Under the pieces are notes generated by a model. The model ran no database searches. It saw nothing but the letters and a program-made list of their open reading frames with translations, and was not told where the DNA came from. From positions 276,892,001-276,956,000 of the forward strand of contig OZ024740.1 of the NCBI GenBank assembly GCA_964016885.1: a stretch of 64,000 nt of DNA, read 5' to 3'. This stretch comes from Eledone cirrhosa. Its lineage: Eukaryota. This document shows, piece by piece, positions 7,545 through 57,025 of this stretch. Made by a program: the position numbers and the translations under genes. Every line of letters begins with the position of its first letter. The stretch's first letter is position 1.

Positions 7545-10500
7545 AGCTGCATTTATCTTGCTTTATTTTCATACGAGTTATCACCAGGTCACAACCAGTG
7601 ACCTCAAGAGACAACAAGTTCCGCCATGTTCAAGAAAGAACATACATACTCATACGTGCATCTTTAGGTGTTTAGACTTGTGATGTACTTATATTGACAG
7701 AATCTTCCCTAGTATATGGGCAGTTCCCATTAGTACTATCTTTTGTATTTCTCCTATACGCGGGTTTCCTGGGATTTGCGATAAATAATCATTAGACCCC
7801 TTAGGTATCATTCCTAGAGCGCCTACAACCACTGGTATTGTTTTAGTTCTCAATTTCCACATTTTTCCAATTTCTATCTCCAGGTCCTTATACTTGCTCA
7901 ATTTTTCAAATGTTTTTATAGATACATTCTTGTCTATTGGAACGGACATATCAATTAGCAGGCATACCCTCTTTTTAAAGTCCTTCAATATTATATCAGG
8001 TCTATTTGCATCTATTTTTCGATCTGTTTGGATGCTAAAGTTCCACAAGATTGAGATGTGATCTTTTTCAAATATGGGAGGTGGTTGATGCTCCCACCAA
8101 TTCTTTTGATGGGGCAGGTCAAAATGCTTACACATCATCCAATGTATGTATTGTGCAGCTCTGTCATGCCTGTTTAGGTATTCGGTTGGAGCTATAGAAC
8201 TGCACATTGAAATTATATGGTCAATGGTTTCTGGTTGTTTTTTTACATACACGGCATAATGGGCTGCATCCATTTTTTATTATGTTGGCTTGGTAATTTT
8301 TTGTTGGCAGACACTGATCTTGTGCTGATATAATCAGTCCTTCAGTCTCCGATTTCAGTCCAGAGGATGCCAACCACTGATGGGTTAAAGTTTTGTCAAC
8401 ATCAGGATTGTTAGCTCGTTCTGGGTATTTTCCATACAGAGGCTTTTCTTGCCATTTCTTAGCCAGTTTCTGTAGCAGTTCTTTCTTTGCAGTTACTTTT
8501 ACCTGCTTTGCTTTTTCTGTGTTTTCCATTTCAGCAATACATGGGACTTCTGAAATGTGTAGTCCATTACTGTATCTTCGTGCATCTTTTGTAATGGAGT
8601 ATGATCTTTTGATGCTTTCGTGTTTCAAAACGAGTTTGATCATCCGACCATGTGATTCCCTTAGATATGTAGATAATCCAATTGTTGCAGTGTTCAACGC
8701 AATGTCTAACTGGATTAACCCACGTTCTCCTTCTTTCCTAGGGAGATATTCTATTTGTATCTGCCTTAGGGTGATGCATTCTGTGCATGGTTAGGAATTT
8801 TCGAATTTTTGTATCGAGCCTACGGATCTCTGTGCTTGACCAGTTGATGACATTGTAACTGTAGGTTACTACTGGTATGGCAAGCGTGTTTATGGCATCG
8901 ATCCTATTCCTTGCATTCAATTCCGTTCTTAAGATTGCTCTTACTCTGCGGTAACATTCCTTCCTTATCCTTTCCCTCATTGTCGAGTGCTTGATTCCGT
9001 CTCCTTCACAAACACCTAGCTATTTGTAAGTTTTTTCTTGATCAAGTTCTCTTATCACATTCCCCCGATCAAGATTAATGTCTGAACTTTTCAGCAGCTT
9101 TCCTCTGGTGAACGTTGCTTTGGCGCATTTATCTAGTCCAAACTCCATTTTAATGTCATCACTGAACTGCTCCACAGTGGATAATAGCCCTTGCAATTGT
9201 TCATCATTTTTTGCAAATAGTTTCAGGTCATCCATGTAGAACAAGTGATTAATGGTTTTGTCATAGACTTTATATCCATGTTTTGTTTCATTGAGCATTT
9301 TACTTAATGGTATAAGTGCGATGCAGAATAAAAGCGGTGATAAAGAGTCACCCTGAAAAATTCCACAATTAATATTAACTTCTCCAGCTTCCAGTGATTT
9401 TGTTTCTCTATTCAAAAGGAGTGTCGTTTTCCATGTCTTCATACTGAATGACAAAAACCTCCTGACAACGGGGGATATTTTGAAAATCTCTAAACATTTT
9501 TCAATCCAACTGTGTGGCAAACTATCGAATGCTTTTTTATAATCTATCCAAGCAATCGATAGATTTTTGTGTCTATTATGACAATCTTCCAGTATCATTT
9601 TGTTAACCAAAACCTGATCCTTACAGCCATATGAGCCTCTATTACGCCCTTTCTGCTCAATGGGAAATGGGTCATTTGTTATCAGGTGGTCATATGTGTA
9701 TTCAGTTAGGACTGATGTTAAAATTTTATACATTGTGGTCAAGCAAGTTATCGGTCTGTAATTGTTGGGATTGTTTGTCTCATCATTCTTCGGAAGCAGG
9801 AATGTAATGTCGTTAACTAGCCATGATGGTATCTTTTCTGGCTCCTTAACTATTTCATTGTAAAGTTGGGCTAACGGCTCATGAGACTCTGTGAAGGCAT
9901 TTATCCAAAAGTTTTGTATTTTGTGTTTTCCTGGGGATTTCCATTTGCTGGTTTTTCTTAGCGCCAAGCGAAACTGTTCAACTGTTATATTTTCCCATAT
10001 TTGTTCCTCAAGGTGAGCTGTATCTTTCATTTGTCTGTCTATCCATGGGGCATGTATGTTATGAACTTTTTCTTCGGCCCAGATCTTTTCCCAGAATTCT
10101 TGCACTTCCTCCTTGGGTGGTATTGATTTAGCAGTTATTGTTGACTTACCAATTTTTCTGTAGAAGTTTCTTTGGTTGTTTTTGAACATATTATTGTCCT
10201 TATAGAATCTAGATCGTTTTTCAAAGCGCCTTATACGAGTAGCTTTGGCCGACACTTTTTGCTTGATTATTTCTATCAGCATGTCTATGTCACTTGTTGA
10301 TTTTATACTGTACTTTTTTTTCAATTTTCTAAGTTTAGTTTGTTTAACATGTTCACCTACTTTATAGTTTGTTAAAATTTCTATGTCAGATCGGAGAAGG
10401 TTTATTTGGCGATTGATGTTCTCTTGCCAAGTAGATTTCTTGTGGGAATTCCTTTGTTTTTTCATCTTCACTCCACATAAGTGAGTGGTGACTTTAGCCG

Positions 10501-10620
10501 ATGCATAATAGAGATGATTTAAATCAGTAATGTTTAGTTTGTTTGTGATGATAATGTTTTTGAGAATTATGTTAGTCTTGTGTATTATCTTTTGGTTCTG
10601 TTTGGAGTTCTGGATCTTAT
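7545..10620 (-). mobile_element. R4/Dong-clade non-LTR retrotransposon, 5'-truncated and disrupted (family A)
   Basis: ORF pieces 9020-10471, 8738-8980, 8221-8697 and 7689-8273. RT motifs NYRPITCL, WIDYKKAFDS, GIFQGDSLSPLLF and FYMDDLKL; CCHC knuckle; REL endonuclease RHD..RPDI..D..K..KY. One stop and frameshifts; 3' end lies in (TAA)n. Confidence 0.92.
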
Positions 10621-10896
10621 ATAAAGTACCAGTAATGCACTGGGTAATTGCTGGCCTTGTACCTAAAGTAGAAACAATTATATTATTAATATATGTGGAT
10701 TGGCACGGTGGATTGGCAGTATCGGTAGAGAGTCGGACACCATGCTTTGCAGCATAGAGTTACGTCCCTTTATGATCTGAGTTCAAATCCTGCCGAGGTT
10801 AACTTTGCCTTTCATCCTTACAGGGTCGATAAAATAGAGTACCAGTAATGCAATGGGTAATTTGCTGACCTTGTGCCAAAAGTAGAAACTATTATT
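10621..10896 (+). mobile_element. SINE 3' fragment (10621-10688) plus a full SINE (10697-10896)
   Basis: Consensus matches; the 5' GTGGATTGGCA is duplicated. Confidence 0.85.
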
Positions 10897-12414: not shown

Positions 12415-15400
12415 CCTTGAATCTCAGTCATTGATGTTGGTTAACTGGAAAGTCCGTTGGATTGAATATCAAGCCACTACCTGCAGCCTCAGATATTCAG
12501 GACGTATCGGAGGGTTCTTGCCGTTCCAAGCAAGCATGCCTTTTGAAGCGTTCCAAAAAGCGTGAAGGGGCCGATTTTCTTTAACCATCCCTGGAAACCT
12601 TTGGAGATAGTCCCCAGTGCGCCTATGACAATCGGGATCACTTTGACTTCATGGCAGTTCCAAATCCTTTTCACCTCCCACTTTAGGTCCTGGTATCGGT
12701 TAATTTTCTCCCTCTCCTTCTCTTGCACTCTCGTGTCGAACGGGCAGGCCACATCCACAATCAGGCACGATCTTTTTTCTTTGTCCACAACCACCAGGTC
12801 AGGTCTATTGTGTTCCAGTTTTTTGTCCGTCTGTATCCTAAAATCCCACAGCACCTTCACCTGACTGTTCTCCATCACCGCCTCTGGCCTATGCTCATAC
12901 CATTTCTCAGAATGTGGTAGATTGTTTACTTTGCACAGGTGCCAGTGGATCACCCTGCCCATCACATCGTGTCTCCAGCCCTTATAGTGGGTCTGGGCTA
13001 GGTGTTTACACTCGGACACAATGTGAGCCACAGTCTCCTCTCTCTCTCCACAGATCCTGCACAGTGGGCTAGCCTCCTCCTTGTAGATATGGTGCTTCAA
13101 CCACTTCGTTTTGAGGGCCTGCTCCTGCGCAGCCATTAGCATTCCTTCTGTAGCCTTTTTGAGGTCTCCTCTTCTCAACCAGTTCCATGTCTGTGGATCT
13201 CTAAATTCAGTTTTCTCAAAGAAGGTACTATGAAGGGATTTTCCCTTAAGGCTGCTCTTCCTCCTTGATGTTATTTCCTCCTTGGGTATCCCCTGGCCTA
13301 CTGTCCCCTCCTTCAGTACATCTCTGAGCATTGGCTCCTTACTATAGGTCACGTATTTGTATAGGTTGTTTTTCTCCATCTGAACACAGTCCTCTATGCT
13401 GATAAGACCTCTTCCACCCTCAGATCTCCTTAGGTAGAGTCTATCGACATCACTCCTCTTGTGGAACATGTTGTAGATAGTCAATAGCTTCCTAGTCTTC
13501 CTATCCATTTCTTTTTGTTCAGCAACATTCCATCTCAGAATTCCCGCACTGTACCTAATAATAGACACAGCTCGGGAATTTACTGCGCTTATGGCATTTC
13601 TGCTGTTCAGATGTGACTTCAATACGCTCCTTACTCTCCGAATGTATTCAGTTCTTAACAATTCCTTCATTTTTTTGTTCTTTATGCCATCAGCCTCCAG
13701 AACGCCCAAATACTTGTATCCTTCCTCAGAGTCAATTTCCTTTATCATCTCACCTGTTGGTATCTGGATCCCGTTACTTCTGCTCAACCTACCCCTCCTC
13801 ATCACAATGACTCCACATTTACCAATACCAAACTGCATACATATATCACTGCTGAAAATACGGACAGTGTCAACAAGCACATCCAACTCCTTCTCACTTT
13901 TCCCGAAGAGCTTAAGATCGTCCATGAAGAGGAGGTGATTGATGGTAAGCTCTCCCCTTCCCAACTTGTATCCTGCTCTCACTTTTCGCAGCATAATGGT
14001 CAAGGGCATCAGGGCAAGGACAAACAACAGAGGGGACAGGCTATCTCCCTGGAAGATACCTCTCTTGATCTTCACGCTTCCCAAGGATACTCCAGTTGAT
14101 GTCAACTCTGTCTCCCAGGACCCCATACTCCTGCCCAGCAACTGTCTGATGTTATCTGCCACCCTGAAGATCTCCAGGCTTTTGGTGATCCAGGAATGAG
14201 GCACCATGTCAAATGCCTTTCTGTAGTCTATCCATCCCATGGCAAGATCAGTGTGTCTCCTCCTGCAATTCCCCATTACCATCTTATCAATAAGCAACTG
14301 GTCCTTTGTACCACGTGACTTCTTTCGGCATCCTTTCTGTTCGTCCGGCAACAAGTTGTTTGTGTGGAGGTGATGGTAGATTTCCTCAGACACAATGCTC
14401 GTCAACAGTTTCCACATTACGGGCAGACATGTGATAGGTCTATAGTTGGTAACATCATTACCCTTGATTCGGTCTTTCATTATCAGAACTGTGGTACCTT
14501 TTGTCAACCACTCTGGCACCTCACCCGACACCAAGCAGTCATTGAACATGGCCGTCAGCTTCGGGTGGAGGGATGTTAAATGTTTAATCCAATACCCCTG
14601 CACACCATCTGGGCCTGGTGATTTCCAGTTGGTTAGTTTTTTGGCTTGCCCCTTAAGAGTTTCAACTGTGATACTCAAATCAGTCTGTTGCTGTGCCTGC
14701 TCACCGATCTCCCTCTGTACTGTCTCAATCCACCCTGCCTGGGCATTGTGTCTAACATCCTGCTCCCATATTCCTCTCCAGAATGTTTTAGCTTGTTCCG
14801 CCCCAGGGATCAAGTCGTTGCCTCTTTCTTTCCCCTCAAGCTGTCCAAACAGCATCTTCTGGTTGTTGTCGAACATGCGGTTCTGTTTATACTGACTGAC
14901 TCTGTTCTCGTATCGCCTGATTTTGGCACTCTTTGCTACAATGCGTTGCTTCAATTCCTCTATGATAATATTTAGCTTTTTACTCCTAGTTTTGTATTTT
15001 ATTTCCAGTCTATTTTTAGTGCCTATGTTTTTTAGTGTCCCATTCATTAGTGACTCAAGCTTTCCTATGTCATTTCTCATTTCCCCGATTTGCCCACTCA
15101 GTCGCTTCTTCCACCACGGCTCTGCTCTTTCTTGTCTGTTGTTTCCTCTCGCTTTTATACCAAGTAGTTTCCTCACCGTATTTGCTGTTGCTTTGAGGAT
15201 ATTGTTGCACTGGTGAAGACTCCTCGCCTCAAGGTATGGGATGACTTTGTTTACCTTAGCTGTTGTTTCTTTTAACTTTTTCCTGTCTACAAATCTTAGG
15301 TTCATAGGTCTCCCACTATCATTGTTCAACTCATCTACCACTAAATTTAGGATATCAACCGAATCTTGTCCTAGCCCGTCAGCATTCATCCCCTCAGTGG

Positions 15401-15795
15401 CCGTATCTCTGTTCCAGGTATTATTTATCTCAGTATTCAGATCATTGTCTGCTTCGGGTGGTTCCTCCGTTCTCAGGACCTCCTCACCTTCATTTCCCGC
15501 CGGCTCGCTTGTCTGGCATACTACACCCGCCATCTCCAAGCCATTCTCTCTGCTCAGTTCCTCCAGTTCCAGCTCGCTTATCCACCCATTAGTTCTTATT
15601 ACCCGAGCCTGCCCGGCCAATTTTTGTTCATCTAATTTAAATAAACCAATCTCGTTCCAGATGTTATGCATCCGTCTCCTGTAGCCCCTCTCCTTGGGGT
15701 TACTTTTCAGGTAGCATTGCATAACAGTTCTATTCAATTCTTTCGTCCAGTTGGTTCTGGCCCCTTTCCTTCTTCTTCTTCCTCCAACATCAGCA

Positions 15796-15796
<1 letters not shown>
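12415..15796 (-). mobile_element. R4/Dong element (family B) flanked on both sides by (TAA)n
   Basis: (TTA)n at 12382-12414 and 15797-15844; ~75-bp 3' UTR. Dong elements are known to target (TAA)n. Confidence 0.92.
12489..15737 (-). CDS. Intact R4/Dong-clade ORF (RT, CCHC knuckle, restriction-like endonuclease), 1082 aa
   Basis: Uninterrupted ORF with PGPDG, NYRPITCL, EQKG, WIDYRKAFD, QGDSLSP, FMDDL, CRIC..H..SEC, RHD and RPDLVV..DV..P..EK..RY. The frame stays open upstream of the TTG (RTNWTKELN). Confidence 0.95.
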   Translation of the reverse strand: MNRTVMQCYLKSNPKERGYRRRMHNIWNEIGLFKLDEQKLAGQARVIRTNGWISELELEELSRENGLEMAGVVCQTSEPAGNEGEEVLRTEEPPEADNDLNTEINNTWNRDTATEGMNADGLGQDSVDILNLVVDELNNDSGRPMNLRFVDRKKLKETTAKVNKVIPYLEARSLHQCNNILKATANTVRKLLGIKARGNNRQERAEPWWKKRLSGQIGEMRNDIGKLESLMNGTLKNIGTKNRLEIKYKTRSKKLNIIIEELKQRIVAKSAKIRRYENRVSQYKQNRMFDNNQKMLFGQLEGKERGNDLIPGAEQAKTFWRGIWEQDVRHNAQAGWIETVQREIGEQAQQQTDLSITVETLKGQAKKLTNWKSPGPDGVQGYWIKHLTSLHPKLTAMFNDCLVSGEVPEWLTKGTTVLIMKDRIKGNDVTNYRPITCLPVMWKLLTSIVSEEIYHHLHTNNLLPDEQKGCRKKSRGTKDQLLIDKMVMGNCRRRHTDLAMGWIDYRKAFDMVPHSWITKSLEIFRVADNIRQLLGRSMGSWETELTSTGVSLGSVKIKRGIFQGDSLSPLLFVLALMPLTIMLRKVRAGYKLGRGELTINHLLFMDDLKLFGKSEKELDVLVDTVRIFSSDICMQFGIGKCGVIVMRRGRLSRSNGIQIPTGEMIKEIDSEEGYKYLGVLEADGIKNKKMKELLRTEYIRRVRSVLKSHLNSRNAISAVNSRAVSIIRYSAGILRWNVAEQKEMDRKTRKLLTIYNMFHKRSDVDRLYLRRSEGGRGLISIEDCVQMEKNNLYKYVTYSKEPMLRDVLKEGTVGQGIPKEEITSRRKSSLKGKSLHSTFFEKTEFRDPQTWNWLRRGDLKKATEGMLMAAQEQALKTKWLKHHIYKEEASPLCRICGEREETVAHIVSECKHLAQTHYKGWRHDVMGRVIHWHLCKVNNLPHSEKWYEHRPEAVMENSQVKVLWDFRIQTDKKLEHNRPDLVVVDKEKRSCLIVDVACPFDTRVQEKEREKINRYQDLKWEVKRIWNCHEVKVIPIVIGALGTISKGFQGWLKKIGPFTLFGTLQKACLLGTARTLRYVLNI

Positions 15797-15843
<47 letters not shown>

Positions 15844-15844
15844 G

Positions 15845-16920
15845 TTCTTTGAGTCTCAGTCTTTGACGTTAGTTAACTGGAAAGTTTGTTGAGATGAATA
15901 TCAAGCCACTACCTGCAGCCTCAGATATTCAGGACGTATCTGAGGGTTCTTGCTGTTCCCAGCAAACATGCCTTTTGAAGTCTTCCAAAAAGCGGGGCTG
16001 GACTAATTTTCTTTAACCATCCTTGGAAACTCTTTGAGATAGTACCTAGTGCACCTATGACAATCGGGACCACTTTGACTTCATGGCAGTTCCAAATCCT
16101 TTTTACTTCCCACTTTAAGTCCTGGTATCGGTTAATTTTCTCCCTCTCCTTCTCTTGCACTCTCGTGTCGAATGGGCAGGCCACATCCACAATCAGGCAC
16201 GATCTTTTTTCTTTGTCCAAAACCACCAGGTCAGGTCTATTGTGTTCCAGTTTCTTGTCCGTCTGTATCCTAAAATCCCACAGCTCCTTCACCTGATCGT
16301 TTTCTATCACCGCCTCTGGCTTATGCTCATACCACTTCTCAGAATGTGGTAAATTGTTTACTTTGCATAGGTGCCAGTGGATCACCCTGCCCATCACATC
16401 ATCTCTCCAGCCCTTGAGTCTGGGCTAGGTGTTTACACTCGGATACAATGTGAGCCACAGTCTCCTCTCTCCCTCCACAGATCTTGCACAGTGGGTTAGC
16501 CTCCTCCTTGTAAATATGGTGTTTCAACCACTTCGTTTTGAGGGCCTGCTCTTGCGCAGCCATTAACATTCCTTCTGTAGCCTTTTTAAGGTCTCGTCTT
16601 TTCAACCAGTTCCATGTCTGTGGATCTCTGAAGTCAGTTTTCTCAAAAAAGGTACTATGAAGGGATTTTTCATGAAGGCTGCTCTTTCTCCTTGTTGTTA
16701 TTTCCTCCTTGGACATTCCCTGGTCTATTATCCTCTCCTTCAGTACAGTTCTGAGCATTGGCTTCTTACTATCAGTCACTTATTTGTGTAGGTTGTTTTT
16801 CTCCATCTGAACACAGTCCTCCATGTTGATAAGACCTCTTCCACCTTCAGATCTCCTTAAGTAGAGTCTATCGACATCACTCCTCTTGTGGAACATGTTG
16901 TAGATAGTCAATAGCTTCCT
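15845..16920 (-). mobile_element. Second family-B R4/Dong copy, 5'-truncated and frameshifted
   Basis: Diverged copy of 12415-13493; ORF pieces 15921-16397 and 16399-16779. Confidence 0.92.
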
Positions 16921-23112: not shown

Positions 23113-23625
23113 ATTATTTTTTAACGTTGGCCGAGGTTGACTTTGCCTTTCATCCTTACGGGGTCGATAAAATAAAGTACCAGTAATGCACTGGGTAATT
23201 GCTGGCCTTGTGCCTAAAGTAGAAACAATTATTTTTTAACGTTGGATTGGCAGTATCAGTAGAGGGTCGGTCATGCTTTCCAGCATAGTTACGTCCCTTT
23301 ACGATCTGAGTTCAAATGCCGCCGAGGTTGACTTTGCCTTTCATCCTTACGGGGTCGATAAAATAAAGTACCAGTAATGCACTGGGTAATTGCTGGCCTT
23401 GTGCCTAAAGTAGAAACAATTATTTTTTAACGTTGGATTGGCAGTATCAGTAGAGGGTCGGACATGCTTTCCAGCATAGTTACGTCCCTTTACGATCTGA
23501 GTTCAAATGCCGCCGAGGTTGACTTTGCCTTTCATCCTTACGGGGTCGATAAAATAAAGTACCAGTAATGCACTGGGTAATTGCTGGCCTTGTGCCAAAA
23601 GTAGAAACAATTATTTTTTAACGTT
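23113..23625 (+). repeat. Tandem SINE array (one truncated and two full copies) separated by a repeated target site
   Basis: ATTATTTTTTAACGTT occurs four times, with a SINE between each occurrence. Confidence 0.9.
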
Positions 23626-26367: not shown

Positions 26368-26993
26368 TTGGAAGAATCGGTAGAGCGTCGGACAATATGC
26401 TTTGCCGCATAGAGTTGCTGCTCTTTGCGTTCTGAGCGCTAATCCCGCTGAGGTTAGTTTTGCCTTTTATCCTTACGGGGTCGATAAATAAAGCACCAGT
26501 AATGCACTTGGGTGGATTTAATCGACTTTCCCTTACTCCAAAATTGCTGGCCTTGTGCCTATAGTAGAAATCATTATTATTATCATTATTATTAAGATGT
26601 GGATTGGCAGTATCGGTAGAGGGTCGGACGCTATGCTTTCCAGCATAGTTACGTCCCTTTACAGTCTGAGTTCAAATCCCGCTGAGGTTAACTTTGCCTT
26701 TTATTCTTACGGGGTCGATAAAATAAAGTACCAGTAATGCACTGGGATAATTGCTGGCCTTGTACCAAAAATAGAAACAATTATTATTAAGATGTGGATT
26801 GGCAGTATCGGTAGAGGGTCGGACGCTATGCTTTGCAGCATAGAGTTACGGTCCTTTACGTTCTGAGTTCGAATCCCACCGAGGTTAACTTTGCCTTTCA
26901 TCGTTAAGGGGTCGATAAAATAAAGTACCAGTAATGCACTGGGATAATTGCTGGCCTTGTAACAAAAGTAGAAACAATTATTATTAGGATGTT
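26368..26993 (+). repeat. Three stacked SINEs with a repeated target site ATTATTATTAAGATGT
   Basis: An old copy (26368-26590) followed by two different younger copies, each bounded by the target sequence. Confidence 0.85.
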
Positions 26994-33675: not shown

Positions 33676-34554
33676 TACGAGGTGTGTCAGAAAAGTTCCA
33701 GGACTGATGTCACAAAAGATTTATTTCAAACCCAAACTTCACTCTAAGAGTTTTCTCCTTCAAAGTAATCCCCCTGGAGTATGAAACTGTAATCTTAGCT
33801 CTCTGCAGCGATCAAACATTTTTCTTCATAATTTTATATACATGTCCTCTGTTTCAGGTCGTCATGCAATGAGCACAGAGCAACGAACAAACTTGAAAAC
33901 TCCGTCAGAAGCACTGGGATTGCTGCAGCAGCTGTATCGAGATGAGACAATGTCACGTTCACGTGTTTTTGAGTGGTGCAAGAGGTTTAAAGAAGGATGC
34001 GAGGACGTGGAAGATGACCCCAGGAGCGGAAGGCCCTCAACAACCAGGATGGAGGTCAACATTGAGCGCGTCAGGCAGATGGTGCGTAGCGATCATCGGC
34101 TGACTGTTCGACTGATGGCAAATGAGCTGGGCATGAATAGGGACAGCGTCTGGAAGATTCTCACTGAAGATTTGGATATGCGGAAAGTCTGAGCGAAGAT
34201 GGTGCCAAAACTGCTGAACGATGACCAGAAGGGTCGACGCATGAAAGTGTGCCAGGACATCCTCGAGCGTCTTGAAACCGAACCAGACTTGCTAGGGACA
34301 GTCATCACCGATGATGAGTCATGGATCTTCGAGTACGACCCGGAGGGGACCCGCTTTGAAGACGTGGACTACATAAAAAAGGCCGTGACGACGAAACTGT
34401 GGAGGATCCCGGAAGAATTCTTCCAGGGGTGCATGCAAGCGAGGCAGAAAAGGATGGAAAAGTGCATTAGACTCCAGGGGAATTACTTTGAAGTTTGTGT
34501 TTGAAATAAATCTTTTGTGACATCAGTCCTGGAACTTTTCTGACACACCTCTTA
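33676..34554 (+). mobile_element. mariner element with an internal deletion
   Basis: Near-perfect ~55-bp TIRs with TA ends; HTH, VEDDPRSGRP, VPKLL and ITDDESWIFEYDPE fused directly to the C-terminus, so most of the DDD domain is deleted. Confidence 0.92.
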
Positions 34555-38018: not shown

Positions 38019-39248
38019 ATAAAGTTATGAATGTAGATCCTGGAGGTAGTAGAGGCGAGGCACATGAAAATCAAAAAGGACTTGGATGGAAGATCTCCAT
38101 CGGCTTCCAGCAAAGCTTGGCCTGGCCCAAGTGAGACCGTCGGACAGAAACACACGGAGACGGACGCTAAGGAGCATAGCCAGGCAGGACCACCAGTAGG
38201 AGAGTAGGTGATAGGTTGTGAGAAGCCGCTCCATTCACCTACTCTCCCACTAGCAACAACACCATTAAGAAAAGTAAGCGCATCAATATACAAACTATCT
38301 GGTTCTCTCCTCCCTTCTCACTCAACGTTAAAACCAATGTAGGAAAAATATTTCTAGCCCTCTTAGATAGACACTTTCCCATTGGTCATAAATACCGCTC
38401 CAGCTTTAACCGACACAAAGTTAAACTAGGATACTCATGCGCTAAGAACATGAAGGCCCACATCACCAGCAGCCTTAGGAGCAACATCCCACCAGGGTGC
38501 TCTTGCAGTAAGCCTGAAGCTTGCCCTCTTCAACAGCAATGCAACACACCAGCTGTACTCTATGAAGCTGTGGTCACTTCCAACCGACCAAACGAACCAC
38601 AGGAGGTCAAATCCTATGTGGGCATGGCGGAGGGCCGATTCAAGAAGCGTTTCCTGAACCACCAGTCTACCTTCAGATACCCGGACAGAGGTTCATCCAC
38701 GAAACTCGTGAGCCACGTATGGTCCCTCAAGGACTCAAATATAGGCTACTCCATTCAATGGAAAGCCATCACTAAGTCCAAGCCATACGCAAGGGGAAAT
38801 CCGACGTGGGGCCTTATGTATTGACGAACGAATAACTATCCTAGAGAGATTACGCAATAGTGATTGCCTAAACACAAGAAGTGAATTTTTCACACGTTGT
38901 CCGCACGTCACCAAACATCTATTGCATAACTACAAGGCTCCGGACTGATTCTTTGTAATTTTATTTTTAATTTTATTTTCAACCTAAACATTTTCCGGAC
39001 TTTCGCAGTTATCTCCGCACGCAGTCTAGTATTGCCTGTGTGAAGTGACCGAGTTTCTGCGCATGCGCGTTCGTACGGTTGTCCTTCCTGTTCCTATAAC
39101 CATACACATCCCGAGCTGAAGATCCGCGAAGGTGAAACAATTGTTCTCGGTATGGTGAACTAACTGTTGTGTAACCACTTCTACCTAACTCGTCCCTTGG
39201 ACTGAGTGCTCTACCACTACGGATATTACCTTCCACTGTTCCACCACT
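38019..39248 (+). mobile_element. Penelope-like element, 5'-truncated (linker, GIY-YIG endonuclease, pLTR region)
   Basis: Frame from 38297 reads IWFSPPFSLNVKTNVGKIFL..DRHFP..FNR..GYSC, then CPLQQQC..VLYEAVV..SYVGMAEGRFKKRFLNH..HVWSLK. Frameshifted C-terminus; ends in (TA)n. Confidence 0.88.
39099..39156 (+). ncRNA. Minimal type I hammerhead ribozyme of the Penelope element
   Basis: ACCAUA..CCGAG CUGAAGA u-CC-gcgaa-GG-u GAAAC-aauu-GUU CUCGG UAUGGU. Confidence 0.75.
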
Positions 39249-42480: not shown

Positions 42481-44282
<1,802 letters not shown>

Positions 44283-54510: not shown

Positions 54511-54553
<43 letters not shown>

Positions 54554-54593
54554 GATTTAAATTCAGGAATTTTATATTCTTTGAATGAAAAGA

Positions 54594-54677
54594 ACCTTCT
54601 GACGAGAATCTCTCTTTGCAACGAAGGCCGTATGGCCTACGTTTTATTTTTGGGATTCGAAACCGATCGGTAAAGGT
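54594..54677 (+). ncRNA. Type I hammerhead ribozyme, copy 1
   Basis: ACCUU CUGACGA GAAUC-[43 nt]-GAUUC GAAAC-CGAUCG-GUA AAGGU; predicted cut after 54672. Confidence 0.92.
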
Positions 54678-55077
54678 AACTATAGTAGGTAAAGTCAATT
54701 TTTTTAAAATTTATTTTGAAACTTTTTCATTATTTACTAAACCTTGTTTATATTTGTTCTGGCTCGTTAATTTATTAACCCGCCATTGAACCACACTGGC
54801 ACTTGGTTGGACAATACATGCGTACCTTGGCGCCTTGTGCGTGAAAGGACGTATTTCATATTACTACTACCTCCACAAACGTTGAGAACAAACCGGGTCA
54901 TTCCGACTGCTGCTGATAACAGCGGTGGCTAGTTTGACCTACCTCCTTTTGCCTCTATCTTTACTACGGCCCTTGATAAACCTGTTCTACATCATCCACT
55001 CTCATCCCAGGAACAGTCTTTGATAGCGCTAGTTTGTGATTTAAATTCAGGAATTTTATATTCTTTGAATGAAAAGA

Positions 55078-55161
55078 ACCTTCTGACGAGAATCTCTCTT
55101 TGCAACGAAGGCCGTATGGCCTACGTTTTATTTTTGGGATTCGAAACCGATCGGTAAAGGT
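55078..55161 (+). ncRNA. Type I hammerhead ribozyme, copy 2
   Basis: Identical to copy 1; predicted cut after 55156. Confidence 0.92.
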
Positions 55162-55561
55162 AACTATAGTAGGTAAAGTCAATTTTTTTAAAATTTATTT
55201 TGAAACTTTTTCATTATTTACTAAACCTTGTTTATATTTGTTCTGGCTCGTTAATTTATTAACCCGCCATTGAACCACACTGGCACTTGGTTGGACAATA
55301 CATGCGTACCTTGGCGCCTTGTGCGTGAAAGGACGTATTTCATATTACTACTACCTCCACAAACGTTGAGAACAAACCGGGTCATTCCGACTGCTGCTGA
55401 TAACAGCGGTGGCTAGTTTGACCTACCTCCTTTTGCCTCTATCTTTACTACGGCCCTTGATAAACCTGTTCTACATCATCCACTCTCATCCCAGGAACAG
55501 TCTTTGATAGCGCTAGTTTGTGATTTAAATTCAGGAATTTTATATTCTTTGAATGAAAAGA

Positions 55562-55645
55562 ACCTTCTGACGAGAATCTCTCTTTGCAACGAAGGCCGTA
55601 TGGCCTACGTTTTATTTTTGGGATTCGAAACCGATCGGTAAAGGT
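55562..55645 (+). ncRNA. Type I hammerhead ribozyme, copy 3
   Basis: Identical to copy 1; predicted cut after 55640. Confidence 0.92.
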
Positions 55646-55738
55646 AACTATAGTAGGTAAAGTCAATTTTTTAAAATTTATTTTGAAACTTTTTCATTAT
55701 TTACTAAACCTTGTTTATATATATATATATATATATAT

Positions 55739-56426
55739 ATACAAATGGAAGTTCAGCATAATCGAAGCTCTGGATGCAGCTAAGCTAACGAATGCAATCG
55801 GAATGTGCAGCTAAGCACTCAATAAGGTATTTTACCTCAGGGTAATAATATTACGTTTAGACAGCTTTGCCAATTGAAGATTGTGACCGGTAAACCAGCC
55901 TCAAGGATCAAAGCAACGAGAAAATTGACTCAGGACAATTTGACAAACCTGGACCATCGCGTCGATATTATGCAATATCTCCGCTAGGTTTCTGTGAAAT
56001 CCGATATCAACAAAATCCACATGCGGGGTATGCAAGTTATTGGTTTTGTAAGATCGACCAGAGGTTTCACTTTCTCAACAGGTATCGGTTCTCAACCGCG
56101 CCGGGTGTGATTTTTTTTTGCAGTAAGCACTGCTGGCGGTCACATGGTTTTCCCAAAGGGAGATTTTTGGCGGTCAAAATTCAAATTTTGAACAAAGGAA
56201 TACATTGCTTTCCACAAACCGAATAAAGCTCTCGACCAGACGTTATTAAACAAACATAAATAATTAACCAATCAAGAGAATTGTCCAATTAAATTAATCA
56301 ATTAATCATTAAGTCTAGGAGATAATAATACAAATGGAAGTACAGCATAATCGAAGCTCTGGCCGCAGCTAAGCTAACGAATGCAATCGGAATGTGCAGC
56401 TAAGCACTCAATAAGGTATTTTACCT
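55739..56426. repeat. Unclassified element with ~98-bp terminal direct repeats 589 bp apart
   Basis: 55739-55837 vs 56328-56426, three mismatches seen; no TG..CA ends. Confidence 0.75.
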
Positions 56427-57025
56427 TAGAGTATATAACAAATTACTTTACCATGGCCGTGATTAAGAAATCTTCTCCTTTTCATTTTCTATTTTTTCTT
56501 CATTTGTATGGTCCTTTTAATAGAATAGTGTGTTTTTCTTTTTAGGTACTGCTCAATATGCACTTGCACTTTGATTATTAAATACCGAGGTCTATTGTCA
56601 AAGCAAACGTTATTCTTGCGCGACAATGCACGCCCACATACGACCATCCACACCGTTACAACCATTGGAAATATGGGTTTCGAGGTGCTGAAATACACTG
56701 CATAGAGCCCAGATCTCATCTGTTTCATCTATCACCTCTTTGGACCACTCAAAAAACATCCTCTACGTGATTATCAATTTGCTACAGATGAAAAAGAGCA
56801 GGACGTGGTGCATAAATGTCTCCGCGACCAACCGAAAATCTTCTTCGATAGAATAAGTAAGCTTGTGAAACGCGGGAATTGCATCGAAAATCAAATAAAT
56901 TATGGCGAACAATTGCTCAAAACCTACGTTTGTTTTAATAAATCAAGAAGAAAAACTAGACTGTTTACAACTTTCCCTCGTATACACTCATACACACAGA
57001 CACCCACACACATACACCCCCCCCC

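What the first reader, a model, noticed from the sequence alone, without database searches (positions are those of the whole stretch)
54551..55720. 484-nt hammerhead retrozyme candidate: rolling-circle-like array inside a (TA)n tract
Seen: ~2.4 essentially identical 484-bp units (one T indel noticed). Each has a complete HHR core (CUGACGA, GAAA, GUA) with all three stems paired. The array starts and stops at different points in the unit, and its right end (TTGTTTATAT) merges into the TA tract through TATAT microhomology. Known: metazoan non-LTR retrozymes are tandem, non-coding type I HHR repeats that yield circular RNAs and are proposed to use Penelope-like RT. Inference: self-cleavage after 54672, 55156 and 55640 releases 484-nt monomers that circularise, and the array is a young product of rolling-circle reverse transcription primed at (TA)n. 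The unit looks longer than the few-hundred-nt monomers I recall for that class. I cannot confirm that the family is undescribed.
Basis: partly seen in the sequence, partly recalled or inferred. Interest (0 to 1): 0.92.

Follow-up and report, generated by a model that had tools for sequence, protein, structure and literature searches.

The report
Hammerhead retrozyme with Penelope-type double ends
A roughly 484-base non-coding repeat carrying a self-cutting RNA motif has been pasted into TA microsatellites at many places in this animal genome, and its insertion ends carry the same two-site signature as a Penelope-like retrotransposon of the same genome, which points to the enzyme class that spreads it and to how that enzyme works.

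Summary
The array is real: 2.4 units of 484 bp, each with a type I hammerhead (cuts predicted after 54672, 55156, 55640), between TA tracts. It is one copy of a dispersed family (1,129 exact ribozyme 29-mers genome-wide; usual unit 483 nt). All 80 loci examined touch (TA)n. End points are not random permutations: 3' ends sit at two fixed sites, A (+81 from the cut) and B (+189-194). In head-to-head two-arm insertions one arm ends at A and the other at B in 38 of 41 loci; pattern coordinates give 32 of 32; sister retrozymes 5 of 5; an autonomous Neptune-like Penelope element in this genome 12 of 12. The two arms share a haplotype, join at unrelated positions, and run across intact cut sites up to ten times. 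Best reading: a non-LTR retrozyme moved in trans by a TA-targeting Penelope-like enzyme that primes both target strands at two sites of one RNA, probably a circle. Cleavage, expression, circularity and the partner's identity are not shown. A new member of a known kind, with unusually informative junctions.

The parts
54513..54550 (.). left part of the (TA)n target tract
   Evidence: TRF; sequence
54551..55034 (+). unit 1 (484 nt); its start is the variable 5' truncation point of a single-arm insertion
55035..55518 (+). unit 2, identical to unit 1
55519..55720 (+). partial unit 3 (202 nt, T6), ending at site A; inferred first-synthesised part
54594..54677 (+). type I hammerhead 1; predicted cut after 54672
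   Evidence: stem pairing kept in sister families
55078..55161 (+). type I hammerhead 2; predicted cut after 55156
   Evidence: identical repeat
55562..55645 (+). type I hammerhead 3; predicted cut after 55640
54673..55156 (+). predicted cut-to-cut monomer RNA (inferred circle)
   Evidence: inference; no RNA evidence
54749..54753 (+). site A (unit 199-203, TATAT; also 55233-55237 and 55716-55720): fixed 3' end of about 70 of 122 arms
   Evidence: 225 exact A-end + TA junctions
54858..54869 (+). site B (unit 308-319; also 55342-55353): second fixed 3' end; the stretch A to B (108-113 nt) is the equivalent of the Penelope 'tail'
   Evidence: 106 exact B-end + TA junctions
55716..55741 (.). right part of the (TA)n target tract, overlapping site A by TATAT

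Best explanation
A non-autonomous, non-coding retrozyme family moved in trans by an endonuclease-bearing Penelope-like element (PLE) that targets (TA)n. Steps: (1) a tandem array is transcribed (inferred); (2) the hammerheads cut, probably helped by pairing of the palindromic stem III of two units, and the 483-484 nt monomer is ligated to a circle (inferred from described retrozymes); (3) the PLE protein, probably a dimer, binds the region downstream of the cut and cuts both strands of a TA tract (inferred from the in vitro PLE work); (4) each DNA end primes at its own fixed site of the same RNA, one at A and one at B (fixed ends and A/B pairing are shown; same molecule is inferred); (5) each reverse transcriptase runs across the cut/ligation point 0-10 times and stops at a variable place (shown as sequence; rolling on a circle is inferred); (6) the two cDNAs are joined head-to-head, mostly by short microhomology (shown), or only one arm is kept, as in this window (A-primed, 2.4 units). 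My odds: retrozyme moved by PLE machinery with two-site priming 0.85; circular monomer as template 0.6; the particular Neptune-like family found here as the driver 0.3.
For: Dispersed and young: 197 matches from 40 scored of 1,587 candidates, the 150 listed 98-100% identical; 1,129 exact 29-mers, control 0. 80 of 80 loci touch a TA tract, 70 on both sides; 118 of 123 arm 3' ends do. Two-arm loci: 38 of 41 A+B, 1 A+A, 1 A+164, 1 interrupted+B. From coordinates: 32 of 32 outward-facing pairs are A+B (11 are loci also, by my inspection). Sister families: 5 of 5 two-arm loci among 8 fetched. Autonomous Neptune-like PLE (L085; RT and GIY-YIG; 4,979-nt monomer with hammerhead, ends in TA at +81 and +147 from its cut): far end opposite to the inverted-arm end in 9 of 9 readable of 10 fetched, plus 3 short A+B copies. 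Arms of a locus differ at 165 of 38,430 comparisons, against medians of 1.2-14.6% between loci. Near-private alleles are in all passes (25; 12 across both arms) or one pass (127), rarely some (5): a one-monomer bottleneck. Both arms exceed one unit in 11 of 41. Sequence across the cut is exact in 225 of 231 passes. Junction offsets are uniform (5 of 41 within 25 nt, 4.3 expected; KS p 0.70), so the inversion is not a fold-back. Literature: two RT start sites bound the PLE tail, both strands are cut and extended, dimer predicted (PMC11167929); tail at one of the inverted pLTRs (PMC3846280; PMC8557442).
Against: No RNA evidence of any kind. No Rfam hammerhead match. In PMC11167929 hammerhead mutants still insert, unprocessed RNA is the main substrate, and no reads end at the cut; in the Li preprint only 1 of 9 predicted dimers cleaved. 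The Neptune-like pLTR has no blastn similarity to the unit and aligns poorly; the matching +81 may be chance, as sister families put site A near +90 and a second PLE family shows two candidate ends about 38 nt apart; 10,597 GIY-YIG candidates exist and few were examined. In this window units 1-2 share a T7 that unit 3 lacks, which one circle does not explain without slippage, later duplication or assembly error. One A+A locus (L111) breaks the rule. A weak excess of 5' ends near the cut (10 of 122 within 10 nt, 5.3 expected, p 0.04, best of four windows, uncorrected) hints that some templates are linear. Both samples were picked on a whole unit or on a 29-mer spanning the cut, so counts of cut crossings are biased upward. 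PMC11167929 reports initiation without homology to the target, whereas both sites here end in TA-compatible letters.
Confidence: 0.65

Rival explanations
1. Same PLE-driven two-site priming, but on a long uncleaved linear multimeric transcript; the hammerhead is silent at that stage and the A/B rule comes from an asymmetric protein-RNA complex, not from a circle holding one copy of each site.
For: Hammerhead cleavage is dispensable for PLE insertion in vitro (PMC11167929); 8 of 9 predicted retrozyme dimers did not cleave; intact cut junctions fit this equally; the autonomous element also obeys the A/B rule.
Against: Alleles found in some but not all passes are rare (5 against 25 in all passes); arms of 9-10 units need source arrays at least as long, while the median arm is 656 nt; the ribozyme's CUGACGA and 5' stem I vary at 0.5% and 0.2% against 5.3% for unit 312-484, and sister families keep stem II pairing through changed letters, which suggests selection for cleavage.
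Confidence: 0.22
2. Insertions are about one unit long and the tandem arrays arise afterwards by local unequal exchange or slippage (a satellite-like route, as discussed in the Li preprint).
For: The window's units 1-2 share a private T7; L142 has 1 difference in 19,898 within-arm comparisons but 10 in 7,949 between its arms, which could be later homogenisation.
Against: Loci nearly identical to the family consensus already hold up to 8.8 units (L045); both arms exceed one unit in 11 of 41 loci; this route does not explain the fixed ends or the A/B rule, so it can only add to the main mechanism.
Confidence: 0.08
3. The unit is only the pLTR or 3' fragment of an autonomous PLE, and the arrays are truncated copies of it.
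For: It shares hammerhead, two ends and TA targeting with PLE pLTRs; only 80 of several hundred loci were read.
Against: In every multi-unit arm of the 80 loci, site B runs on into unit 317-484 and back to the hammerhead, not into an ORF; no stop-free frame above about 85 codons overlaps the array; no blastn match between the unit and 35 GIY-YIG loci at E<=0.1.
Confidence: 0.04
4. The inverted arm forms by self-priming (fold-back) of the first cDNA or of an antisense template, and the tail comes from endonuclease resolution (PMC3846280, PMC8557442).
For: A few junctions are near-palindromic (L039, L047, L142).
Against: Junction offsets are uniform (5 of 41 within 25 nt, 4.3 expected; KS p 0.70); either arm can be the longer (median A arm 587, B arm 656 nt).
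Confidence: 0.03

Closest known systems
Metazoan non-LTR retrozymes (Cervera and de la Pena 2020, PMC7229834; Li, Clavereau and Pollet 2026, 10.64898/2026.07.22.740005)
   Same: Tandem, non-coding, AT-rich units each with a type I hammerhead with a short palindromic stem III; dispersed; co-occurs with PLEs; length within the preprint's 51-972 bp range.
   Different: Longer than the 170-400 nt circles of the 2020 paper; 53-nt stem II. In the parts I read and the term searches I ran, neither paper describes insertion junctions ('inverted', 'microsatellite', 'target site': 0 hits in PMC7229834; 'tail', 'inversion', 'junction': 0 hits in the preprint). Here no sequence likeness to a pLTR was found; the link is the insertion signature. 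RNA not shown.
Endonuclease-bearing Penelope-like elements (Neptune, Penelope/Poseidon, Naiad): PMC8557442, PMC3846280, PMC11167929, PMC4209133
   Same: 5' truncation, tandem and head-to-head structure, hammerhead upstream of two initiation sites, tail on one end only, TA/AT-rich targets.
   Different: No ORF; tail of 108-113 nt instead of 30-40; both arms can be several units long; both start sites can pair with the TA target.
Non-autonomous Chlamys elements such as MRC1 (PMC8557442, passage)
   Same: Non-autonomous PLE passengers with multicopy head-to-tail insertions.
   Different: Those resemble their autonomous partners at the 3' end, and that group is described as lacking canonical hammerheads; this family has a hammerhead and no matching partner found.
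L1 twin priming (recalled, not tested against a paper)
   Same: Both target strands prime, giving an inverted 5' arm.
   Different: In L1 the second priming site is variable and the forward arm starts next to it; here both sites are fixed and both arms can cover the same sequence several times.

Membership tests
non-LTR retrozyme | tandem units, at least two consecutive with a complete type I hammerhead | tested here: met
   three hammerheads in the window; covarying stems in sister families; no Rfam match
non-LTR retrozyme | non-coding, no LTRs | tested here: met
   no frame above about 85 codons; arms map to pure unit multimers
non-LTR retrozyme | dispersed copies | tested here: met
   1,129 exact 29-mers; matches on at least 18 contigs
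non-LTR retrozyme | self-cleavage of the transcript | not testable with these tools
   fold energies only
non-LTR retrozyme | expression as circular RNA | not testable with these tools
PLE-mobilised element | variable 5' truncation with fixed 3' ends | tested here: met
   5' ends spread over the unit; all but about 5 of 122 3' ends at A or B
PLE-mobilised element | inverted 5' copy with a tail at one end only | tested here: met
   38 of 41; 32 of 32
PLE-mobilised element | microsatellite / AT-rich target | tested here: met
   80 of 80 loci
PLE-mobilised element | target site duplication | tested here: inconclusive
   20 of 80 loci show a shared interrupted TA string on both flanks, mostly explicable by the tract itself
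PLE-mobilised element | sequence likeness to the pLTR of an autonomous partner | tested here: inconclusive
   no blastn match to 35 GIY-YIG loci; shared layout with the Neptune-like L085; few families examined
autonomous PLE | ORF with RT and GIY-YIG endonuclease | tested here: not met
Neptune clade (for the candidate partner L085) | RT, cysteine-rich linker, C-terminal GIY-YIG; placement in an RT tree | tested here: inconclusive
   domains and CxxxxCxxC linker seen (motif described); no tree built

The most novel reading that the evidence does not exclude
These arrays record a general Penelope integration mechanism: one protein dimer holds one circular RNA, cuts both strands of a TA tract, and starts two reverse transcriptases at two different fixed sites; both roll round the same circle and their products are joined head-to-head. 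That single mechanism would explain the pLTR, the inverted 5' copy and the one-sided tail of PLEs, and would be junction-level evidence that animal retrozymes use PLE enzymes.
Probability: 0.45. Interest if true: 0.85.

Novelty: new member of a known kind. Interest (0 to 1): 0.62.

Why it matters
Which enzyme moves animal retrozymes, and how PLEs make their tandem, inverted and tailed insertions, are both called open in the papers read (PMC7229834 discussion; PMC8557442; PMC11167929). This family gives a 483-nt substrate, hundreds of recent insertions and a sharp rule (one end A, the other B) shared with an autonomous element of the same genome, so both questions become testable in vitro with one small RNA. 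A system that writes multi-copy cDNA from a circle into a defined microsatellite would also interest people building retrotransposon tools.

Tried and rejected
Rfam found nothing relevant. Sequencing runs: no RNA holder listed; the four contig runs of unknown kind (one study) hold the family and its variants but say nothing on expression. Partner search: GIY-YIG family search, 35 loci compared with the unit by blastn without a match; a protein search of a second PLE family returned that family and the first; ten further upstream regions were, where recognisable, the first family; the blastn table for the second family's 30 loci fell in the cut part and is not used. No solved structure matched the L085 protein. 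Folding of the cut-to-A and A-to-B stretches gave no significant z-score for the retrozyme or for L085, so no shared RNA structure is claimed; sites A and B are mostly unpaired in the circular fold, but so is part of the unused TATAT at 23-27. Target-site duplications could not be read in TA tracts. Fold-back origin of inversions rejected. Linear cleaved monomers with sloppy template jumps are unlikely: 225 of 231 exact junctions. My regex hammerhead scan of the whole window missed the known ribozymes and is not used. Earlier-findings look-ups by sequence and by place were empty. No Repbase or Dfam search is available here, so the family may already be catalogued as an unclassified repeat.

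Full report
Observation. The array is as described: period 484, 2.4 copies, between two TA tracts. Units 1 and 2 are identical. The one indel is a T run: T7 in units 1-2, T6 in unit 3, and T6/A4 is the state in 203 of 236 passes over 80 loci, so the family unit is usually 483 nt. Each unit holds a type I hammerhead: CUGACGA at 54599, stem I of 5 pairs, a 53-nt stem II, and a 3-pair stem III inside a 10-nt palindrome. The catalytic fold lies 2.1 kcal/mol above the local minimum and the palindrome can pair between two units at -16.6 kcal/mol, the dimer arrangement described for metazoan hammerheads (PMC4209133, passages). Rfam does not recognise it; I put this down to the long stem II, which is inference. 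Independent support comes from conservation (CUGACGA 3 of 553 and 5' stem I 1 of 474 deviations, against 670 of 12,608 in unit 312-484; the 3' half of the ribozyme is not usable because 40 loci were picked on it) and from sister families whose stem II letters differ while pairing is kept.

Family. The 3.0-Gb own genome gave 1,587 candidates, 40 scored, 197 matches, and 1,129 exact copies of a ribozyme 29-mer with a control of 0. I read 80 loci: the window plus the 39 other best-scoring loci, and 40 loci taken in order along contig C1 from the first 100 listed 29-mer matches, leaving out those already held (main arms 86-99% identical to the window unit). All 80 touch a TA tract, 70 on both sides, and 118 of 123 arm 3' ends do.

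Fixed ends. Read in the hammerhead sense, 5' ends are spread over the unit, but 3' ends are not: of 122 arms, 68 end at unit position 203 (site A, 81 nt after the cut) and 45 at 311-319 (site B), with a few more at each site where the alignment stops a little short or long. Genome-wide there are 225 exact A-plus-TA junctions and 106 exact B-plus-TA junctions, but only 2 for the unit's other TTTATAT, equal to its control count. So pairing with the TA tract may help but does not choose the site. The window copy is a single arm ending at A.

The A/B rule. 41 of the 80 loci are head-to-head two-arm insertions. In 38 one arm ends at A and the other at B; the rest are one A+A (L111), one A+164 (L129) and one interrupted locus (L122) (class B was set as 293-320 so as to include diverged subfamilies whose flanks show the B end). 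Three more loci show short inverted B stubs by eye (L036, L051, L056) and are not counted; L113 and L143 hold separate insertions and were not counted as two-arm. Using only coordinates (first 100 of 225 A ends, and the 48 of 106 B ends in the same range), 32 of 32 outward-facing pairs are mixed; by inspection 11 of these are loci already counted. Five of 5 two-arm copies among 8 sister-family loci follow the same rule.

The same rule in an autonomous element. A GIY-YIG search gave 10,597 candidates. [quoted passage not shown] Its 4,979-nt monomer carries a hammerhead and ends in TA tracts at +81 or +147 from its cut. Among 30 copies I took the 10 long ones whose inverted arm ends clearly at one of the sites and fetched their far ends, leaving out one complex locus (L163): 9 were readable and all 9 end at the other site. 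Three short copies are also A+B. It has no sequence likeness to the retrozyme beyond layout, so it shows the enzyme class, not the partner.

How the arms were made. The two arms join at unrelated unit positions (5 of 41 within 25 nt, 4.3 expected; KS p 0.70), by microhomology in 24, bluntly in 7 and with a short insert in 10; either arm may be the longer, and both exceed one unit in 11. That argues against fold-back and for two separate priming events on sense RNA. The arms share a haplotype: 165 differences in 38,430 between-arm comparisons (35 of them from L113 and L143), 189 in 97,773 within arms, against medians of 1.2-14.6% between loci. Near-private alleles are either in every pass of a locus (25, of which 12 span both arms) or in one pass (127), and rarely in between (5) (L113 and L143 left out). 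111 of 122 arms cross a cut site and 61 cross two or more, though both samples favour crossing; the junction is exact in 225 of 231 passes. A monomeric circle explains all of this at once, including why the two primers cannot use the same site. An uncleaved multimer held by an asymmetric complex explains most of it and stays the main rival. Against a pure circle: the window's own T7/T7/T6 pattern, one A+A locus, and a weak excess of 5' ends near the cut (10 against 5.3, p 0.04 uncorrected).

Literature. Li, Clavereau and Pollet (10.64898/2026.07.22.740005): read parts 1-3 of 5, abstract to discussion, plus a term search; supplements closed. Cervera and de la Pena 2020 (PMC7229834): parts 3-4 of 6 and passages. 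Frangieh et al. 2024 (PMC11167929): parts 1-2 of 4, the main text. Craig et al. 2021 (PMC8557442), Arkhipova et al. 2013 (PMC3846280), Cervera and de la Pena 2014 (PMC4209133), PMC8969392 and PMC12602865: passages only. No supplements were read; supplementary figures of PMC7229834 and PMC11167929 may show junctions. These papers establish retrozymes, propose PLEs as their movers from co-occurrence and pLTR likeness, propose circles as templates, and describe a tail on one of the inverted pLTRs bounded by two RT start sites. In eight searches I found no paper that shows PLE-type ends on a retrozyme or counts the A/B exclusion; the library lacks most subscription papers, so this is not proof of absence. 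Two earlier AI findings in other genomes (e1-7810660, e1-7881736) report Penelope-type ends on tRNA-bearing tandem repeats; they are unchecked and not support.

Verdict. It works like, and by every feature I could test is, a non-LTR retrozyme: a new member of a known kind. Cleavage and circular RNA are untested. Its value is in the junctions, which tie it to PLE machinery and suggest a two-primer, one-RNA mechanism that can be tested directly. Interest 0.62; 0.85 if the single-circle, two-enzyme model holds (probability 0.45).

Noticed in passing
L225-L232, L037:2720-3700, L126:3060-3300: Sister retrozyme families with units of about 477, 481, 485 and 488 nt share the stem III palindrome and a purine-rich box after the cut; stem II letters change with pairing kept; 1,474 matches to the shared pattern, this family included.
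   Followed up: partly
L085 (G000:C1:145868500-145878000): Full-length Neptune-like PLE, 4,979-nt monomer, hammerhead with the U3-A8 core variant (described in PMC4209133), ending in (TA)n; this copy's ORF is interrupted near its start; 467 candidates for its pLTR end.
   Followed up: yes
L087, L175-L204: Second PLE family with two candidate ends about 38 nt apart joining TA tracts; a 1,289-aa open frame is listed at G000:C3:109896718.
   Followed up: partly
window 55739-56433: A 589-bp unit present about 1.2 times (106-nt direct repeat, 95%) abuts the same TA tract from the other side; relatives lie near L113, L118 and L138; possibly another non-autonomous PLE passenger.
   Followed up: partly
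L041, L042, L045, L068, L069, L107 flanks: Several other short hammerhead-bearing or head-to-head elements sit in the same TA tracts, so these tracts collect repeated insertions.
   Followed up: no
L137 right end: The last 10 letters of the B end are repeated once before the TA run, as if the enzyme had re-aligned on its template; one case.
   Followed up: no
window 38222-38824: 200-codon frame that looks like a PLE endonuclease fragment by eye; no Pfam match.
   Followed up: partly
window 23130-23625 and 26585-26992: Tandem 191-bp (2.6x, 99%) and 197-bp (2.1x, 92%) repeats that look like a SINE (label recalled).
   Followed up: no
window 7689-10759 and 12489-15872, minus strand: LINE-type RT frames, one of 1,127 codons, plus Tc1/mariner-like fragments at 33785-34192 and 42814-43816 (names by eye).
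   Followed up: no
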